A stretch of DNA of 62,777 nt, counting the filler. It is 14 parts of 14 records of this genome, joined end to end, with 100 filler letters (N's around TTAATTAATTAA, not from the genome) between each part and the next. Parts side by side here need not be neighbours in the genome. Positions count along the whole stretch, not along the records: positions 16,528 to 20,049 come from SRR15195285_8727; 13 more parts are not named here. One strand, 5' to 3'. A program made the position numbers and the translations under genes. The notes under the pieces were generated by a model. It was not told the DNA's origin, ran no database searches, and saw only the letters and a list, made by a program, of their open reading frames with translations. Of this stretch, positions 3,016 through 20,049 are shown one piece after another (position 1 is the stretch's first letter; every line of letters starts with the position of its first letter).

Positions 3016-3115
3016 NNNNNNNNNNNNNNNNNNNNNNNNNNNNNNNNNNNNNNNNNNNNTTAATTAATTAANNNNNNNNNNNNNNNNNNNNNNNNNNNNN
3101 NNNNNNNNNNNNNNN
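3016..3115. other. Artificial contig-joining spacer (N44-TTAATTAATTAA-N44), first of 13
   Basis: The identical 100-nt spacer with stops in all six frames also occurs at 7545-7644, 11925-12024, 16428-16527, 20050-20149, 24983-25082, 29379-29478, 33557-33656, 38091-38190, 41913-42012, 48008-48107, 51252-51351 and 56898-56997. Confidence 0.99.
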
Positions 3116-7252: not shown

Positions 7253-7644
7253 AGTGTCGCAAGTGGCAGGTCTTGTCTCGAGAGGCAGGTGGCTTATTCA
7301 GTTAGATACGTATGGCCTCCGCCCTGCCGTCGGGGTGTACGTGGCCGTGTGTGTGCCGTGCCGTGCCCGCCGTGCGCCGGCGCGTGCGTATCGATATGCG
7401 CGCGCGTCCGCGCGATGCTTCTCTAGGTTCCATTCCAATTCCGGCCGCGGGTATGGTACGTATCCGCGCGGTATGTATCGCCTCCGCGCGCGCGCGTATG
7501 TCTTATTCAGTGCTCTTGTGCTACGATCATGGTTACGGTACGATNNNNNNNNNNNNNNNNNNNNNNNNNNNNNNNNNNNNNNNNNNNNTTAATTAATTAA
7601 NNNNNNNNNNNNNNNNNNNNNNNNNNNNNNNNNNNNNNNNNNNN

Positions 7645-14195: not shown

Positions 14196-16225
14196 CTAAA
14201 AGTTCAGAGTGAAATTGAATGGTTCTGCTGGCAGGCCCAGTGTGTTGAAAATCGCAGCGACTGGAAAGTCAAAGGGTAGGTGTGCCAAGGCAACGACGTG
14301 TGGCACTGTGCAGTTCACCTTTGGCACGCAGTGCGGCTCAGCGGATGGCCAAGCGTAGCCGATATTGCAGTACACGTCGCAAGATGCTGCCGTGAGGTTG
14401 GTCGGCATAATTGAACAAGGCACTGCGAGAGAGTTGTTCAGCGTCGCCACAAACACAACCGCGCCAAAGCCTCCTGGCGCGACCATGAGCGCCTCCAGGA
14501 GCGCGCTGCCACTTGATCGCGAGGCCTTGTCTTCAGTGTGGCCGCCTTCACCACCCTCAAGTTCTGTGGACTTCCAATGCACTCGCAAAATTTGGACCGC
14601 TTTCGAGTGGTACGAGCCCCCTGGAGCATCGGTAGGCAGTGGCTCAACCCTATCAAGTTGTGGCCCACGAGACAGCAGCTGCCCTTCTCCGTACGCAATC
14701 CGTCTCGCCTCTAAAGCAAGCCGTGCGCCTACGGGCTGCTTGTGTCGGGGGTGAATGCTGCCCGGCCAATATGGGCCACCAGGATCACCGAGATCGACTG
14801 TGCATGCCATACCGACATTCGGTAGTGATAGTGCTTCGAGTTGTGCAAGCCGCTGCTGTGGAACAGCACCTCCGAATGTCGGCGCGCCACTAGCTCCCGC
14901 AGAAGCGCCACCGCCCTCGATCATACACGGTGATCCACCAAATGAGGGCTTGTCACCGTGCCAGCCCGCAAGTTGCGCAAAGAGAAACGGTGAGGTCTGG
15001 TTGGTGTGGCCATCGGTTGAAAAGCGGCGACGCCAGTCGCTGATCATCGCCTTAAACCTGCAGCCGTAGTTTAGGTTGCCCACATTGGCTTCGCCCTGCC
15101 AGGGAGCAGGAGAATTGGACAGCACTTTGATGAGCAGAAGGGCAGGATCGGAATGGAGTTCCACAAACAGGTAACACTTACTTGGTACCAGATAAATCCA
15201 GCAACAGTCATGCGAGTGAGGGGCGCTACCATGGCCTCCCAAAGAGCCGACCAATTTGGCTGTGGCAAGCTGCCCTCATGCTGTGAGCACTGCGCAAGGG
15301 CCGCCGAAGAGCTCCAGAGTTCGATGTTGGTACCAGGCACAGAGGTAGCCACGCACCCCACTGGCACGTCAAGGTGGGCCTGCAGATCGCGGCAGAAGAA
15401 GAACGCAACGGCGGAGAAAAAGTCGAAGTCACCACCACCACAGGCGCTGTCGGAACTAGAGACTGACCACTGCTGGCGGATGCCAGACTGATTGAAGTCC
15501 ACAGGTTCGCCTGTGTGTGTCTTCTGCCAGTCGAAATTGACAGCCACAGTGAACAGCCGCAGCGATGGGTAGTTTCTCGCTGCGTCGCACTCGGCAGTGT
15601 GGTTGAACGCCTGGGCGACGGAAAAGGCCATGTTGGACTGTCCAGATGCAACCCACACCTCGCCAAACAGACAGTCGGTGAGTTCCTCGTGGTCGGTGCC
15701 TACCGTTGCACCGATCTCAGCAGGAGCGTGCGATGCTGGCTGCGTGGGCAAGCAGGCCTGCCACGTGCCGTTTGTGGCGACAGTCGTACTGGTTGCGGCT
15801 GTCCCATTAATTTTCAGCACCACACTGGCGCCAGGTAGACCGAAGCCCCAGAGACAGGGCCTGGTGTGCTGCAGGACCATGTGCGACCCAAACGACTGTG
15901 CGAAGAGCTTGGGGCGCTGTTTGATGTAGGTCCACCAGGCCGTGTCCGTGTTGCCCGCAGTGCCCGACTTGAAATACGTCTTGAGTGGCGTGTCACTGGT
16001 GGCGCCACAGGTGGAGACTCCACCAGCACACTCAAAGGTGAACCCAGCGCAGGTGGGCAGCGCACTGCAGTGCACCATGGCGGCACTGGTCGTGAGGTTC
16101 TGCGGTTGGCCGAGGTCGCCTCCACTCATCAAAGCGCCAGCATGGTGCGAGTATGCTACACCGGTGGCGGATGACGTGGTGGCGGCTCGTGCCACAACGG
16201 TCACACACAGGAATGCAGATAGCAT
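14196..16225 (-). CDS. Secreted sialate O-acetylesterase (SASA/SGNH) with N-terminal PAN-like module
   Basis: Signal peptide, FGSHMVLQ, GEVWVASGQSNM, FSAVAFFF, IWYQ|GEAN (intron 15096-15181 GTAAGT...CAG), DLGD...IHPRHKQPVGARLA. Confidence 0.92.
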
Positions 16226-16736
16226 GCGCGGTTACCAACCCGCCGGTGCGCACGAACGGCGACCCGAAGCGCAGGCACGCACCCGGCGGCGCACGCACGC
16301 AGCGCGCGCGAGCTGCGCATCGCGCTACAGCTCCGGCGCGCGCGTGGGAGATCCGGGAACTTCTGCCAGTCGGTATCCCGGATATGATACTGACCAGTAC
16401 TTGGTCTTGAATCCAGGAATCGAATCCNNNNNNNNNNNNNNNNNNNNNNNNNNNNNNNNNNNNNNNNNNNNTTAATTAATTAANNNNNNNNNNNNNNNNN
16501 NNNNNNNNNNNNNNNNNNNNNNNNNNNATACCGATGGCCCGTCCAGAAGCAAACCACACCGCCGCATGGCATTTGCTATCTTGCTAGTTGCTTGGGTCTT
16601 GGCGTTAATTCCTCGAGTTCCCAATATTTTATATTAACCGGAACAGGCCGAGGCGGGTCGTTCGTTGCACAGGCTGAGCTGCAGCTGGAAGTGGCAAAAC
16701 GACGCTGTGCGAGGGTGGATCGCTCAACAACGAACG

Positions 16737-18122
16737 ATGCTTGACATCGTCATCATATGGACAGCAGTAGCAGCAGCAGCAGCACTGGCGACTGAGAACA
16801 TCAACAGCCGGTTGAACCTGCTCCCCGCGGCCCCCCTGGCACGGCAGCTCTACAAAAACGATACCCTGACGACCTGGGGCGGATCGGTCCTGCGAGGTGA
16901 TGACGGGGACTATCACCTGTACGCTGCAGCGTTTGGCTTGGGGTGTGGACTAGGGACCTGGCATTCGAACTCTTTCGTGATGCACGGGGTCTCGTCGACG
17001 CCTGCAGGTCCGTACCAGTGGAGCGATGTTGCTCTGCCGATGGAACACCACAACCCACACGCCCTCAGAGCGCCAGATGGAACCTATCTCATCTACACCC
17101 ACGGCCAGAGCAACTGCGACGGCGACATGCCCAATTCCACCTGGGCCATCCCAGACTGCGGTGGTGAGCTTCCTGGCGGCGGTCGTACACGGGTCCGTAA
17201 CCAAACAACCGGCTACTGTGGTAAGAACTGCGTGATTCCAGGCTGTCGTGGGGGGCTCGCAGGCGACGGGCCAGTCGGTAGTTTTCGGGGTGGACCGTCG
17301 TCTTACAACCGAATCGAGCTGCACCAGTCCAAGACACCGTATGGACCGTGGTCGAGGGTGACGCCGTCGCCAGATCTGTGGGACGGAGCTATCACACGGA
17401 CGAGAGACGGCCAGACTACTGGAGGGGCCAGCCCTGCGGCCCTCTTCCATCCGAATGGGAATGGGTCAGTAATTTTGATGCTGACACCAGCGATTGACCG
17501 GCCGATCGGCCATCCACTCTGGGACAAAGCCCCGATAGAGGTGTGGTTCGCAGATCATTGGCAAGGGCCGTACTACCAAGCTGGAAACATGAGTTTCGCC
17601 CCTTGCAATCAGTGCTCAAAGAAGAATTGCCGGACGTGCGCAGAGTGTGACAGCGGCGAGTGTGGATCTGGCCTCGAGGATCCGACATTTTTCTTCGACA
17701 AGACCGTCCAGAGATATAGGGCACTATTCCACCAAGGTGGCGGTGGACTAGATGGTGGCTATGCGCAGAGCCGAAGCTCGGATTTCTTTGGGGATTGGGA
17801 CTACAGCCGACAGCGTGGTGCGTACGGGACCCAGATTGTACTCGCTAGCAACGCGAACCTTCCTCGTACTCTGGACGTCTCCAGGCGTGAGCGGCCGAAA
17901 GTGTACATTGAGAATGGCACGCTGCAACTCCTGATTAATGGTGTCTGCTTGAATGGCTCATGGGGTTCGTGCTTCACGTTTGCCCAGCCAATCAACCAGA
18001 GTGTTCCATGGCTACCAGCTGCGCCCGCATCGACCGCGCACTCACACGCACTTGTGATGACCGAGAAACGCGACAGCTCATCAGAAGTAGCGGCTCAAAG
18101 ATTGGAGGACCATATGCAATGA
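16737..18122 (+). CDS. Secreted five-bladed beta-propeller glycoside hydrolase (GH43-like)
   Basis: Signal-like N-terminus. TWGGSV...YHLYAA...W.SNS.V.H.VS..PAGPY...HNP...PDGTYLIY, EDPTFF, RRERPKV motifs. AATAAA at 18131-18136. Confidence 0.75.
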   Translation: MLDIVIIWTAVAAAAALATENINSRLNLLPAAPLARQLYKNDTLTTWGGSVLRGDDGDYHLYAAAFGLGCGLGTWHSNSFVMHGVSSTPAGPYQWSDVALPMEHHNPHALRAPDGTYLIYTHGQSNCDGDMPNSTWAIPDCGGELPGGGRTRVRNQTTGYCGKNCVIPGCRGGLAGDGPVGSFRGGPSSYNRIELHQSKTPYGPWSRVTPSPDLWDGAITRTRDGQTTGGASPAALFHPNGNGSVILMLTPAIDRPIGHPLWDKAPIEVWFADHWQGPYYQAGNMSFAPCNQCSKKNCRTCAECDSGECGSGLEDPTFFFDKTVQRYRALFHQGGGGLDGGYAQSRSSDFFGDWDYSRQRGAYGTQIVLASNANLPRTLDVSRRERPKVYIENGTLQLLINGVCLNGSWGSCFTFAQPINQSVPWLPAAPASTAHSHALVMTEKRDSSSEVAAQRLEDHMQ

Positions 18123-18180
18123 GCATGTACAATAAAGCATGCACGCATACCGAGACAGTCGCGTTTATTCCGCAGTTGCA

Positions 18181-18306
18181 CACACTTGGTACCCATCAAG
18201 ACCCACCGCCGAGATACCTGAACGAAGCGCCTCGCACACCTTGCGGCGCGAGTGCACCAACGCCAGGCACCTGACTGCGTCAGGTCCGTCATATGCCATC
18301 AGTGTG
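18181..18306 (-). promoter_or_regulatory. SECIS element in the 3' UTR of the DsbA-like gene
   Basis: Minus strand: helix I cacact/agtgtg; core ATGAC (18292-18288) and TGAT (18198-18195); helix II ggacctgacgc/gcggtgggtct (10 of 11 pair); long apical stem with a GCAA tetraloop. AATAAA follows at 18169-18164. Confidence 0.78.
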
Positions 18307-18343
18307 AGAGTCGCCAATGCGTGTGGGTGTGGGAGCTGTAGCA

Positions 18344-19291
18344 TTATGCCGAACATTCCCCGCTTGCCCCGTTTTCGACCCGCTTGCGTTCCGCGTCATT
18401 GAATGGATTGTCAAACTTGGCCGCACGCTGGTCGATCACTCGCGCCCCGGCCTCCACATCCCGGCGAATCACCTCGAACAACTCCAGGAAGTAGTCTGAA
18501 TCCATGGAACCACGCACGACAAACGGCTGTTGCTGAGCAGCAGCCGATGAAGAGTTGCGGAACGGCCCACCAACCGCACCGAGTGCCGGCACGTTGAAGC
18601 AGAACAGTGGAATGCTGTGGATGCCCTTCTGTTTGATCGTCGCGCCGTACCAGTGCCACACGTGGTCCTCCAATTCGTCGCTGTCCAGGAAAGCCGTTGC
18701 CACGTTAGTGTCAAGACCAACTTCTGCAGCTGCGGCCATCAGCGTCGCCCGGTCGCTTGCAGACTGCGCCTGCTCAAAGTGTCGCTTGTTCATCGCCGAA
18801 ATGAACTCCTCTTGCAACCCAAACCTCCCCGCCCACAGCAGCAGTCGTTGGCTCTCGACAGGCTGCCACTGCGCCAGCACGTTGTAATCAAACGCAATCC
18901 CTGCTGCCCTGCCCTGCGCTGCCATAGACCGCTCGGCACCGTCACGCTTGGCTGGGTCGTTACCCATGTAGCCGAGGAGCGCGTCGTGCCACGTCTCCTT
19001 CAGCTCAGCCCCACCGGTACTGCCGGCGAGAGAGCTACGGCCCGACCGATCGTCTCCGATGAAGCTGTACGGCCACCGGGTCACATTTATCTGCAGCACT
19101 GCGTCGGGATGCGCCGTGTGGAAGCGCTCCATCGCGTGCAGGATGTGCGTCTTCCCTATGTACCCGTGGGGTCATTGTGTGCATGTCACAAAGTCTGCCT
19201 CGATGCGGATCGGCTGGACGCCCGGCATCCGCATCCGCTCGCGCACGCCGTCCGCTGCGAGAAGGTTGTCGACGGCATCTGTGGCACTCAT
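18344..19291 (-). CDS. DsbA/FrnE-family thioredoxin-fold oxidoreductase, selenoprotein (UGA=Sec at 19172-19174)
   Basis: ORFs 19172-19495 and 18344-19132 are in the same frame, separated only by TGA in DFVTC-T-Q-[TGA]-PHGYIGK, the position of the first Cys of the CPWCYIG motif. FrnE motifs GRAAGIAFDY, SQRLLLWA, GIHSIPLF. SECIS in the 3' UTR. Confidence 0.88.
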
Positions 19292-19499
19292 CACGCCGAC
19301 GACTCCGAGTTCGTGTCCGTAGACAGCTGCCTCTGCACTCGTTGCTCCTGTGGCTCGTGCCGTGAGGTGTGGACTAGAAATTGCGGCCAAGAGACAACAT
19401 CCTCGCAGCATGCACCCAACGCGAGGAGGGACGAATGCAGCCCCGAGCCCCGGCGTACCGCCCCCGGAGCCGCATATTGCGGGATATACATACACAATA

Positions 19500-20049
19500 T
19501 TCGATATAAAATAAAACTGCAGAATCTTTAATTCCTTGCTTCATTCCCTCCAACGTAATGTCTTTTTGCTGCACGTCAAGCCACGTCTGAACTCCCAAGC
19601 GTTTAAACGCTAGATGAAGAGTACTGGCCGTACCACTTGCATCCGCCTGGGAGTGGCTTAAGAAGGCGTGATACTCCATGGGACGGCAGCAAAACGCATC
19701 CAATTGTCGTGGACACTCTGGAGCTCCAACTGACAGTGCCACAGGATTGAGGAAGGGGTGCTCAAGAATCTCTGTCAGTGTAGGTCGGTCTTTCGGCTGA
19801 CCTTTCAGACACCACCGAATCAGGTCTTTTGCAGCTTCCTTCCATTCTGATTCTTCGACATTCGGAAATACTGGATCGAGCATGGTATCGCTAATTGTGT
19901 GCCAGACGCAAAGCGTTGACTTGTCCTCTAACGATACCAGAGTATCGTTTGCCGAGTTTTTCGTGAATAGGGGGACTTCGCGCAACAAGATGTGTCAAGC
20001 GACACATGAAGTCAACCAAGAAGACGGGGTGCTGCCCTGGGACAGCACA
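19500..20049 (-). CDS. Partial protein kinase C-lobe followed by a TIR domain (5' end cut by contig end, TIR apparently truncated)
   Basis: AAKDLIRWCLKGQPKDRPTLTEILEHPFL (kinase subdomain XI), then YHAFLSHSQADA...LGVQTWLDV...GMKQGIKDSAV (TIR_2 N-half). Confidence 0.7.

What the first reader, a model, noticed from the sequence alone, without database searches (positions are those of the whole stretch)
18344..19291. Hidden DsbA/FrnE-family selenoprotein with a CxxU motif (UGA recoded)
Seen: two ORFs in the same frame are joined through one TGA (19172-19174), reading DFVTC-T-Q-U-P-H-G-Y-I-G-K. Known: FrnE/DsbA proteins carry D-x-x-C-P-W-C-Y-I-G here, so the TGA falls exactly on the attacking Cys. 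The resolving Cys is Gly, and an extra Cys sits three residues upstream. Inference: a 315-aa selenoprotein with a rearranged redox centre (CxxU-P-x-G instead of UxxC). Standard gene callers would split or truncate it.
Basis: partly seen in the sequence, partly recalled or inferred. Interest (0 to 1): 0.85.

Follow-up and report, generated by a model that had tools for sequence, protein, structure and literature searches.

The report
Selenocysteine FrnE-like redox enzyme gene
This is almost certainly a real selenoprotein gene of a marine protist, a DsbA/FrnE-type redox enzyme whose UGA "stop" encodes selenocysteine and whose public annotation is therefore cut short; selenium-containing DsbA/FrnE enzymes are already known, but this group has an unusual active site.

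Summary
On the minus strand, one frame is open from 19495 to 18344 except for a single TGA at 19172-19174. It reads DFVTCTQ-U-PHGYIGK and carries a Pfam DSBA domain.

Evidence that the TGA is a selenocysteine (Sec) codon:
- 53 of 54 related metagenome and metatranscriptome loci have TGA at this column (49 of 49 distinct sequences).
- Both flanks are conserved at codon positions 1-2 and vary freely at position 3.
- 21 of 43 complete coding sequences of the family also end in TGA, so the codon is not reassigned.
- A pelagophyte homologue has Cys at the column (SCAICPYAYIGK).
- Relatives carry SECIS elements in their 3'UTRs.

The deposited protein for this gene is the truncated 262-aa ORF.

A profile alignment and an AlphaFold model put Sec at the nucleophilic Cys position of FrnE's CPWC. 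Gly replaces the resolving Cys, and an invariant Cys sits three residues upstream.

Weak points: no SECIS could be demonstrated in the window itself, only a long non-canonical candidate at 18306-18181. The Sec machinery could not be checked because no genome is held.

Sec-containing DsbA/FrnE proteins (UxxC type) are already published for algae and marine animals. I rate this a new variant of a known kind. The coding sequence probably starts further upstream, at 19411.

The parts
18344..19411 (-). Probable full coding sequence (355 codons plus TAA) of the FrnE/DsbA-like selenoprotein.
   Evidence: The frame is open except for one TGA. ATG at 19411-19409 was read. The N-terminus MLRGCCLL resembles MLRGLGLL of L004. 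The choice of start is inferred, not shown.
19172..19174 (-). In-frame TGA read as selenocysteine (residue 40 counted from 19291, residue 80 from 19411).
   Evidence: TGA in 53 of 54 related loci and in 49 of 49 distinct segments. Cys at this column in P0142. Aligns to Cys22 of FrnE.
19181..19183 (-). TGC codon for the invariant Cys three residues upstream of Sec; proposed resolving residue of a C-x-x-U centre.
   Evidence: Invariant in 32 of 32 aligned full-length sequences and in 48 of 49 distinct segments. Also present in the Cys homologue, C-A-I-C.
19160..19171 (-). Codons for P-H-G-Y after Sec. Gly occupies the place of the second (resolving) Cys of CxxC.
   Evidence: P, H and G are invariant in 49 of 49 segments. 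Gapless alignment to CPWC-Y of FrnE.
18344..19132 (-). The 262-aa ORF (MERFH...) that is the deposited, truncated protein for this gene.
   Evidence: P0124 is identical over 262 of 262 residues. Its sources are NCBI, JGI/IMG and EukProt.
18353..18355 (-). Codon for the Cys in the flexible C-terminal tail (..GECSA). It may regenerate the active site, as the tail cysteines of FrnE do.
   Evidence: Cys within the last 6 residues in 12 of 43 complete family members, those of the window's subclade. Tail pLDDT is below 50. Function inferred.
18181..18306 (-). Only candidate SECIS in the 3' region. Helix I is CACACT (18306-18301) with AGTGTG (18186-18181). ATGA lies at 18292-18289 and the partner TGAT has its GA at 18197-18196. 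The 95-nt span encloses a long irregular stem. Not confirmed.
   Evidence: Pattern scan, fold. Not supported by Rfam or by my three covariance models.

Best explanation
The gene encodes a cytosolic-type DsbA/FrnE-fold thiol/selenol oxidoreductase. Its UGA at 19172-19174 is translated as selenocysteine through the eukaryotic SECIS-dependent pathway. SHOWN: the UGA and both flanks are under coding selection across a large family of marine-protist genes. The same mRNAs also use UGA as a terminator. Relatives have SECIS elements in their 3'UTRs. One relative has Cys at the column. The fold is FrnE-like, with Sec at the N-cap of helix alpha-1, the place of the nucleophilic Cys. INFERRED MECHANISM: the Sec selenolate attacks a substrate disulfide or an oxidant. 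The invariant Cys at -3, which lies in the beta1-alpha1 loop, then resolves the intermediate as an intramolecular selenylsulfide. This makes a C-x-x-U centre shifted three residues towards the N-terminus relative to the C-P-W-C of FrnE, whose buried second Cys is replaced here by an invariant Gly. The centre is then re-reduced by glutathione, by thioredoxin, or, in this subclade, by the Cys in the flexible C-terminal tail, by analogy with the C-terminal CxxxxC of FrnE. The public annotation of the gene, 262 aa starting at MERFH, lacks the whole active site. The confidence given (0.85) is for the gene being a genuine selenoprotein; I put the Cys(-3)/Sec redox pair at about 0.5.
For: - TGA stands at the column in 53 of 54 loci. 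L046 does not reach the column.
- 49 of 49 distinct segments have TGA and none has TGC, TGT or TGG. The seven codons on either side are conserved at positions 1-2 and vary at position 3, for example Pro+1 with G22/C13/T8/A6.
- Of 43 complete intron-less coding sequences, 21 end in TGA, 14 in TAG and 8 in TAA.
- The Cys homologue P0142 reads LDIISCAICPYAYIGK. A cluster mate is named Aureoumbra lagunensis.
- One contig from a metatranscriptome library (X1, record 5) spans 19114-19261. It keeps the TGA, shows no joint, and differs only by a synonymous change at 19166.
- SECIS in relatives: Rfam SECIS_1 scores 34.9 bits in L037 (cut-off 35) and 22.9 bits in L008. My model R2 finds 11 loci outside its training set at E<=0.01, all on the coding strand and 3' of the stop. 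Helix II shows compensatory changes at 7 of 11 pairs.
- Pfam DSBA scores 34.9 bits against a cut-off of 25.6.
- The family profile matches FrnE chain 5cnw at E 1e-9, with U aligned to Cys22 and Gly to Cys25.
- The AlphaFold model has pLDDT 89.3, strand 26-36 and helix 41-60.
- Foldseek's top hits are FrnE structures: 5co3, E 7e-12, TM-score 0.78 normalised to the target.
- The roles of the CxxC and the C-terminal CxxxxC of FrnE come from passages of PMC8945050.
Against: - No SECIS was demonstrated in the window. Rfam gave no hit at E<=10.
- My three family models gave nothing better than 7.5 bits (E 0.17) within 2.9 kb downstream of the stop, and those alignments used trivial pairings.
- The one candidate, 18306-18181, has a 95-nt span and no AA motif at the canonical distance from ATGA. 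I defined the pattern criteria after seeing it.
- No whole genome is held, so tRNA-Sec, SPS2, PSTK, SepSecS, eEFSec and SBP2 could not be sought. No tRNA lies in the window.
- The RNA evidence consists of contigs from RNA libraries, which can contain DNA.
- There is no protein-level evidence.
- The Cys(-3)-Sec bond is inferred from invariance only. I could not read model coordinates to measure the distance.
- The C-terminal Cys is present in only 12 of 43 family members.
Confidence: 0.85

Rival explanations
1. The selenoprotein is real, but the upstream Cys is not the resolving residue. Sec would act alone, as the single catalytic residue does in GST kappa, HCCA isomerase or monothiol enzymes. 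It would cycle through a selenenic acid or a mixed selenylsulfide with glutathione, or be resolved by the C-terminal tail Cys.
For: The canonical resolving position is Gly in 49 of 49 distinct segments. The structural neighbours include glutathione-dependent DSBA-fold enzymes that lack a CxxC: GST kappa (3rpn, 1r4w), HCCA isomerase (2imd) and DsbM with GSH (5hfi). A Cys lies in the disordered tail of this subclade.
Against: The Cys at -3 is invariant in 32 of 32 full-length sequences and is kept in the Cys homologue as C-A-I-C. That is hard to explain if it has no redox role. The tail Cys is absent from 31 of 43 complete members.
Confidence: 0.3
2. In this particular genome the gene is a decaying or non-recoded copy. 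The family is selenoproteic, but this copy has lost its SECIS, so UGA terminates and at most the 262-aa C-terminal piece is made.
For: No SECIS was detected by Rfam or by three family models in the 2.9 kb downstream. A convergent 485-aa ORF ends only 221 nt from the stop codon, which leaves little room for a 3'UTR.
Against: Both halves of the frame are intact and the active-site residues are unchanged. Nine cluster members at 90% identity or more keep the downstream ORF. The near-identical contigs differ only by a synonymous change next to the TGA. Rfam SECIS_1 found only 2 of the 40 relatives scanned. My R2 model gave only 12.6 bits to the clear long-form SECIS of L046, the nearest relative (77% identity) for which 3'UTR sequence is held. 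A miss in the window is therefore weak evidence. A SECIS-like long hairpin does lie 52 nt after the stop.
Confidence: 0.06
3. The existing annotation is right. Translation starts at the MERFH Met (19132), and the conserved upstream part is a 5' leader or upstream ORF that stops at TGA.
For: Gene callers produced this model for the window (P0124). Nearly all database relatives are called the same way: 19 of the 21 I fetched lack the upstream part.
Against: The upstream part is conserved as protein in the same frame in 52 of 53 loci, with third-position variation. It supplies strand beta-1 and the active-site loop of the DSBA fold at pLDDT 96-98. The truncated form would lack the catalytic centre. 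The Cys homologue is one continuous protein across the column.
Confidence: 0.03
4. TGA is a reassigned sense codon (Trp or Cys) in these organisms, or it is a sequencing error.
For: One database protein, P0015, shows W at the column. I did not see its DNA.
Against: 21 of 43 complete family coding sequences terminate with TGA. Long table-11 ORFs are normal across the window. The TGA recurs in 49 distinct sequences from many samples.
Confidence: 0.01

Closest known systems
Sec-containing FrnE/DsbA selenoproteins of green algae (Mamiellophyceae, Mesostigma), marine invertebrates and early chordates. The literature calls them DsbA, FrnE or 'PDI3'.
   Same: Same DSBA/FrnE fold. Sec stands at the first, nucleophilic position of the active-site motif. 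These are eukaryotic genes with a 3'UTR SECIS, and they are routinely mis-annotated because the exon holding the TGA is dropped. I saw passages of PMC2874816, PMC3473315, PMC6627142, PMC3965025 and PMC7539508.
   Different: This family has Gly at the +3 position and an invariant Cys at -3, giving C-x-x-U-P-H-G. I had no sequence of the published forms to align.
Deinococcus radiodurans FrnE (DR_0659; PDB 5cnw, 5co3, 5xwh)
   Same: Best sequence match (E 1e-9) and best fold match (E 7e-12, TM-score 0.78 normalised to the target) among solved structures. It is a DSBA-type Trx fold with an inserted helical domain, of the cytoplasmic type, and it has a Cys-bearing flexible C-terminal tail.
   Different: FrnE has C22-P-W-C25 and a C-terminal CxxxxC (passages of PMC8945050). 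The window protein has U-P-H-G, an extra Cys at -3 and a single tail Cys. Foldseek reports about 20% sequence identity in the alignment.
CxxU redox motifs of the Rdx-type selenoproteins (SelW, SelT, SelH, SelM/Sep15)
   Same: A Cys and a Sec are separated by two residues at the beta1-alpha1 junction of a thioredoxin-like fold. This comparison is recalled, apart from the CxxU motif of SELENOW, which is mentioned in PMC7539508.
   Different: In those proteins, as I recall, CxxU lines up with the canonical CxxC, so Sec is at the second position. Here Sec lines up with the first position, and the Cys lies outside the canonical motif. The families are unrelated beyond the fold.
GST kappa and 2-hydroxychromene-2-carboxylate isomerase (DSBA-fold enzymes without a CxxC)
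   Same: DSBA fold with a single catalytic residue at the N-terminus of helix alpha-1 (structural hits).
   Different: Those enzymes use Ser and bound glutathione (recalled). Glutathione binding was not tested here.

Membership tests
Eukaryotic selenoprotein gene (UGA decoded as Sec) | In-frame UGA at a position conserved among homologues | tested here: met
   53 of 54 loci and 49 of 49 distinct segments carry TGA.
Eukaryotic selenoprotein gene (UGA decoded as Sec) | Protein-coding conservation on both sides of the UGA in one frame | tested here: met
   Codons -7 to +7 are conserved at positions 1-2 and variable at position 3. 52 of 53 loci keep TC[ST]Q upstream.
Eukaryotic selenoprotein gene (UGA decoded as Sec) | SECIS element in the 3'UTR of this gene | tested here: inconclusive
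   The window gave no Rfam hit and no significant hit with R1-R3. One non-canonical candidate lies at 18306-18181. My pattern matches 13 sites in 125,554 nt, which is about a 2% chance of a match in the roughly 225-nt 3' region, but I fixed the criteria after seeing the candidate. Relatives do have SECIS elements.
Eukaryotic selenoprotein gene (UGA decoded as Sec) | Homologues with Cys in place of Sec | tested here: met
   P0142 reads SCAICPYAYIGK. It is the only such protein among the best 150 of 590 hits.
Eukaryotic selenoprotein gene (UGA decoded as Sec) | UGA also serves as a stop codon in the same organisms (no reassignment) | tested here: met
   21 of 43 complete family coding sequences end in TGA.
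Eukaryotic selenoprotein gene (UGA decoded as Sec) | Sec machinery in the genome (tRNA-Sec, SPS2, PSTK, SepSecS, eEFSec, SBP2) | not testable with these tools
   No whole genome is held for the window. ARAGORN finds no tRNA in the window.
Eukaryotic selenoprotein gene (UGA decoded as Sec) | Selenium in the protein (75Se labelling or mass spectrometry) | not testable with these tools
   Requires an experiment.
DSBA-like thioredoxin domain, FrnE subfamily (PF01323; cd03024 as named in PMC8945050) | Domain match above the curated threshold | tested here: met
   PF01323 scores 34.9 bits against a cut-off of 25.6.
DSBA-like thioredoxin domain, FrnE subfamily (PF01323; cd03024 as named in PMC8945050) | FrnE-like three-dimensional fold | tested here: met
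   The model has pLDDT 89.3. The top five Foldseek hits are FrnE structures, followed by SCO1869. This rests on a predicted model, not a solved structure.
DSBA-like thioredoxin domain, FrnE subfamily (PF01323; cd03024 as named in PMC8945050) | C-x-x-C (CP[W/F]C) at the N-terminus of helix alpha-1 | tested here: not met
   The motif is U-P-H-G. The first position is Sec and the second Cys is replaced by an invariant Gly.
DSBA-like thioredoxin domain, FrnE subfamily (PF01323; cd03024 as named in PMC8945050) | C-terminal CxxxxC (present in many but not all FrnE proteins) | tested here: not met
   The tail ..GECSA has a single Cys. Only 12 of 43 family members have a tail Cys.
Published Sec-DsbA/FrnE selenoproteins (U-x-x-C type) | Sec at the first position of the active-site motif | tested here: met
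   Gapless profile alignment places U on Cys22 of FrnE. The model places it at the helix N-cap.
Published Sec-DsbA/FrnE selenoproteins (U-x-x-C type) | Cys three residues after Sec | tested here: not met
   Gly in 49 of 49 distinct segments.
Published Sec-DsbA/FrnE selenoproteins (U-x-x-C type) | Orthology with the published green-algal or animal genes | not tested
   No tool gave me a sequence of the published forms.

The most novel reading that the evidence does not exclude
This may be an undescribed, almost obligately Sec-dependent branch of the FrnE/DsbA superfamily. In it the redox pair has moved three residues towards the N-terminus (C-x-x-U-P-H-G instead of U/C-x-x-C). The branch is spread across marine protists: named relatives come from a haptophyte, a euglenid and picozoan single-cell assemblies, and a pelagophyte holds the Cys form. 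The window's lineage, which looks picozoan-like, would decode the UGA with an unusually long SECIS that standard models miss. That would also be the first sign of Sec use in that lineage.
Probability: 0.3. Interest if true: 0.6.

Novelty: new variant of a known kind. Interest (0 to 1): 0.45.

Why it matters
- **Annotation.** The deposited protein lacks its first 53 residues (93 if the start is at 19411), including the catalytic centre. The same truncation affects nearly all database relatives; 19 of the 21 I fetched lack the upstream part.
- **Enzymology.** A DSBA-fold enzyme with Sec at the nucleophilic position, an invariant Gly at the resolving position and an invariant Cys at -3 is a natural experiment. 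It shows how a CxxC centre can be re-wired around selenium, and whether such a centre works as a dithiol-like or a monothiol-like catalyst.
- **Biology.** The family is common in marine metatranscriptomes and is nearly always in the Sec form. It therefore adds to the selenium demand of marine protists. If the window is from a picozoan-like organism, it also implies Sec decoding there.
- **Methods.** Rfam SECIS_1 found only 2 of the 40 relatives scanned. SECIS-first pipelines are therefore likely to miss this family.

Tried and rejected
- **Rfam on the window.** Regions 17000-19600 and 18150-18345 at E<=10 gave no SECIS.
- **Three covariance models of my own.**
  - R1 was built from 5 elements. 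Its best match at the ATGA of 18292 scored 6.1 bits, E 0.22, through a short hairpin that lacks the 3' GA.
  - R2 was built from 10 elements. It found nothing on the minus strand above 6.5 bits in 15500-18400.
  - R3 was built from 23 elements. It scored 7.5 bits, E 0.17, with a trivial 3-bp pairing.
- **A 53-nt GT..AG intron (18270-18218) inside the candidate.** I removed it in a script. The remainder does not fold into a SECIS-like shape (-23.1 kcal/mol, short hairpin), so I dropped the idea.
- **Other matches of my pattern.** The one at 49980-49938 lies inside a 559-aa ORF and is a false positive.
- **RNAalifold on the MAFFT alignment of 14 candidate SECIS.** It gave only 8 pairs at -4.6 kcal/mol because the alignment was too poor.
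- **The genome search 'own'.** No genome is held.
- **ARAGORN.** No tRNA in the window.
- **Earlier scan notes.** None exist for this genome or this sequence.
- **Literature search for the motif strings CSQU, CTQU, CxxUP and UPHG.** It returned only noise. Picozoa plus selenoprotein returned one unrelated paper.
- **RNA-library contigs.** None covers 18185-18272 or anything above 19261. They therefore say nothing about the SECIS candidate, the 3' end or the start codon. X2 record 10 reaches only 25 letters beyond the TGA and is not counted as bridging it.
- **P0032 and P0015.** In P0032, 22 residues replace U, which looks like a read-through 63-nt phase-1 intron splitting T|GA. P0015 has W at the column. 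I did not see the DNA of either, so I give them no weight.
Full report
**1. The observation**

On the minus strand, the frame that runs from 19495 to the TAA at 18346-18344 is interrupted only by TGA at 19172-19174. Under table 11 it falls into two ORFs in one frame: 19172..19495 and 18344..19132. Read through, it gives ...IRIEADFVTCTQ-U-PHGYIGKTHILHAMERFH.... Pfam DSBA (PF01323) matches at 34.9 bits against a cut-off of 25.6, E 1.7e-8, and the match starts at the U column.

The window is eukaryotic in content. It holds a 1,3-beta-glucan synthase, a carboxylesterase, and a protein kinase C-terminus with a TIR-like stretch next door (both below Pfam's cut-offs). No whole genome is held for it.

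**2. Is the TGA a coding codon?**

A word-indexed search found 160 relatives among the 8000 candidates scored. Of the 21 I fetched, 19 lack the part upstream of the column, as expected if gene callers stop at TGA. The window's own deposited protein, P0124, is exactly the 262-aa downstream ORF (262 of 262 identical).

A scan of metagenome contigs returned 54 loci.
- In 53 of them, TGA stands three codons before G[YF][IV]GK. The 54th, L046, begins at residue 83.
- 52 of the 53 read ..D-x-[VI]-T-C-[ST]-Q upstream in the same frame. L019 does not, probably because of an intron.

Among the 49 distinct 123-nt segments:
- the TGA is invariant in 49 of 49;
- Cys at -3 is present in 48 of 49;
- Gln at -1, Pro at +1, His at +2, Gly at +3, Gly at +6 and Lys at +7 are present in 49 of 49;
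- third codon positions vary freely on both sides, for example Thr-4 with C22/G18/A6/T3 and Pro+1 with G22/C13/T8/A6.

This is the signature of protein-coding selection running across the TGA.

Of 43 complete intron-less coding sequences (42 loci plus the window, not de-duplicated), 21 end in TGA, 14 in TAG and 8 in TAA. TGA is therefore also a terminator in these organisms, which excludes a reassigned code.

**3. A Cys homologue**

HMMER against 1.84 billion representative proteins gave 590 hits at E<=1e-3. Among the best 150, only P0142 and P0032 reach the column. P0142 reads LDIISCAICPYAYIGK: Cys at the U column, Cys at -3 and Ala at +3. It is an MMETSP transcript, and a cluster mate is named Aureoumbra lagunensis. 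The family is thus almost always in the Sec form, with at least one Cys form.

**4. RNA-library contigs**

In four coded metatranscriptome runs, near-identical contigs lie on the gene.
- X1 record 5 spans 19114-19261. It has 58 and 87 letters on the two sides of the TGA, no joint, and a single difference at 19166. That difference is CAC to CAT, a synonymous His change.
- No other letter was reported at 19172-19174.

These libraries can contain DNA. The result shows that independent samples carry the TGA with no intron across it. It does not prove transcription.

**5. SECIS**

*In relatives.*
- Rfam SECIS_1 scored 34.9 bits in L037 (cut-off 35) and 22.9 bits in L008. These were the only 2 hits among the 40 loci scanned, so that model is insensitive for this group.
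- A simple pattern scan found convincing elements 30-150 nt after the stop in many loci. The pattern was ATGA, at least 8 of 10 pairs directly after it, and a 3' GA. The elements fold as helix I, internal loop, helix II, AA loop and helix III.
- On a 10-sequence alignment, helix II is 83.6% paired, against 28.7-50.5% when the 3' partners are slid. 7 of 11 pairs show compensatory changes. I had selected these elements for pairing, so the pairing percentage is partly true by construction.
- The model R2, built from those 10, found 11 further loci at E<=0.01: L048, L038, L023, L006, L010, L036, L005, L040, L019, L017 and L018. All hits lie on the coding strand, 3' of the coding sequence.
- Several family members have long forms. 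L046, the closest relative (77% identity) for which 3'UTR sequence is held, has a 71-nt span and scored only 12.6 bits with R2.

*In the window.*
- Rfam and the models R1-R3 gave nothing significant within 2.9 kb downstream.
- The only candidate starts 52 nt after the stop. It has CACACT (18306-18301), ATGA (18292-18289), a long irregular stem, TGAT (GA at 18197-18196) and AGTGTG (18186-18181).
- It folds to -65.7 kcal/mol, z-score -2.24.
- My pattern matches 13 sites in 125,554 nt of the window, about a 2% chance for the roughly 225-nt 3' region. I set the criteria after seeing the candidate, and at least one of the 13 sites is a false positive inside an ORF.

The SECIS of this gene is therefore not shown.

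**6. What the protein is**

- A profile of 32 full-length family members (U written as C) matches D. radiodurans FrnE at E 1e-9. In the N-terminal stretch the alignment has no gaps..DfvtCsq-C-P-H-G-YiGK against ..DIWSDIA-C-P-W-C-YIGK. Sec falls on Cys22 and Gly on Cys25. That stretch scores only 9.9 bits on its own.
- The AlphaFold model has mean pLDDT 89.3 and pTM 0.89. Strand 26-36 ends at Thr36, the loop is Cys37-Thr38-Gln39-Sec40, and the helix runs from 41 to 60. Sec is thus the N-cap of helix alpha-1.
- Foldseek's best solved matches are five FrnE entries (E 7e-12 to 6e-11, TM-score 0.74-0.79 normalised to the target). SCO1869, YjbH, GST kappa, HCCA isomerase and DsbM follow.
[quoted passage not shown] In drFrnE, a C-terminal CxxxxC was proposed to regenerate the active site (passages of PMC8945050).

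**7. Proposed mechanism (inferred)**

Sec is the nucleophile. The canonical resolving Cys is gone (invariant Gly). An invariant Cys three residues upstream, in the beta1-alpha1 loop, is the likely partner in a selenylsulfide. The centre is thus C-x-x-U, shifted relative to FrnE's C-x-x-C. The P-H dipeptide after Sec is the one in the C-P-H-C of E. coli DsbA (recalled).

Re-reduction would come from glutathione, from thioredoxin or from the tail Cys (..GECSA). The tail Cys occurs in 12 of 43 complete members, which are the window's subclade. The main alternative is a monothiol-like cycle in which the upstream Cys is not the partner. I could not read model coordinates to measure the Cys-Sec distance.

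**8. Gene limits**

An in-frame ATG at 19411-19409 gives a 40-residue extension, MLRGCCLLAAISS.... It resembles the start MLRGLGLLCTLAS... of L004. Most relatives have Arg/Ala/Ser-rich N-terminal extensions before the conserved VDNLL. I therefore take 19411 as the more likely start (355 aa). No contig covers that part.

**9. Comparison with what is known**

- Sec-containing DsbA was reported in bacteria and Micromonas, then in Ciona and amphioxus. In those, the upstream Cys of the U/CxxC is Sec, and the TGA exon was mis-annotated as 5'UTR (passages of PMC2874816).
- It is widespread in marine invertebrates (passages of PMC3473315).
- It is listed as family 'FrnE (DsbA)' in SelenoDB 2.0 (passages of PMC3965025).
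- A Sec-FrnE is reported in Mamiellophyceae and Mesostigma (passage of PMC6627142).
- 'The algal selenoproteomes' names DSBA among the most widely distributed Sec proteins of algae (passages of PMC7539508).

The kind is therefore known. None of the passages I read describes the C-x-x-U-P-H-G arrangement.

**10. Lineage**

- The cluster at 90% identity or more around the window's ORF includes a EukProt record named Picomonas judraskeda COSAG03, which is 236 of 262 identical.
- The window's glucan synthase is 78% identical to a EukProt COSAG04 record and at most 51% identical to the next two hits in the list.
- Other named relatives of the selenoprotein come from Haptolina ericina, Eutreptiella and a Picozoa single-cell assembly.

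The window is probably from a picozoan-like marine protist. This is a lead read from source names, not a determination.

**11. Verdict**

I put the chance that this is a genuine selenoprotein gene at about 0.85-0.9, and the proposed Cys(-3)/Sec redox pair at about 0.5. It is a new variant of a known kind, of moderate interest.

Noticed in passing
window 19292-19411 (minus strand): An in-frame ATG at 19411-19409 adds 40 residues (MLRGCCLLAAISSPHLTARATG...) that resemble the N-terminus of relative L004. Most relatives have Arg/Ala/Ser-rich N-terminal extensions before the conserved VDNLL, which may be targeting peptides.
   Followed up: partly
L036, L037, L039, L040, L042, L043, L045; L016, L022; proteins P0036, P0044, P0047, P0062, P0105: The family splits into subclades by C-terminus. 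One ends in a Cys tail (..G-x-C-S-A). One ends in ..RRDEWW-basic. One has a C-terminal extension of about 100 residues that holds a conserved ..PELNG..G....F....GRY.V.L.. block and ends in KDEL-like (KDEL, GDEL, KEEL) or acidic ..ELAMY/..IFAMV tails. Pfam names no domain for the extension in P0044 or P0105.
   Followed up: partly
proteins P0177 and P0154: More distant relatives lack the active-site N-terminus in their called form and are fused to other parts. P0177 carries C-terminal TPR repeats, and P0154 comes from a dinoflagellate transcriptome.
   Followed up: no
window 19374-19988 (minus strand): The upstream neighbour ends with a protein-kinase C-terminus (26.7 bits, below the cut-off of 31.7) followed by a TIR-like stretch (18.8 bits, below the cut-off of 28). 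Its ORF runs to within 40 nt of the likely start of the selenoprotein gene.
   Followed up: partly
window 16665-18122 (plus strand): A convergent 485-aa ORF with no Pfam family ends 221 nt from the selenoprotein's stop codon. The two 3' ends must share or nearly share this short spacer.
   Followed up: no
window 19150-19211: Contigs of other organisms in the RNA libraries match only these ~60 nt around the Sec codon at 90-95% and then diverge (records 6, 7, 8, 13, 14). Third codon positions still vary across the family, so I see no clear sign of an RNA element beyond the protein constraint.
   Followed up: partly
window, e.g. 3016-3059, 3072-3115, 7545-7588, 7601-7644 and onward: Pairs of 44-N blocks recur about every 4.4 kb (1144 N in all). 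This looks like masking or withheld stretches, not assembly gaps.
   Followed up: no
L001-L054 (3'UTRs): Rfam SECIS_1 recognised only 2 of the 40 loci scanned, while a family-specific model found elements in 21 loci at E<=0.01. Several of these algal SECIS have long apical extensions (L046, L020, L043, L035, L016).
   Followed up: yes
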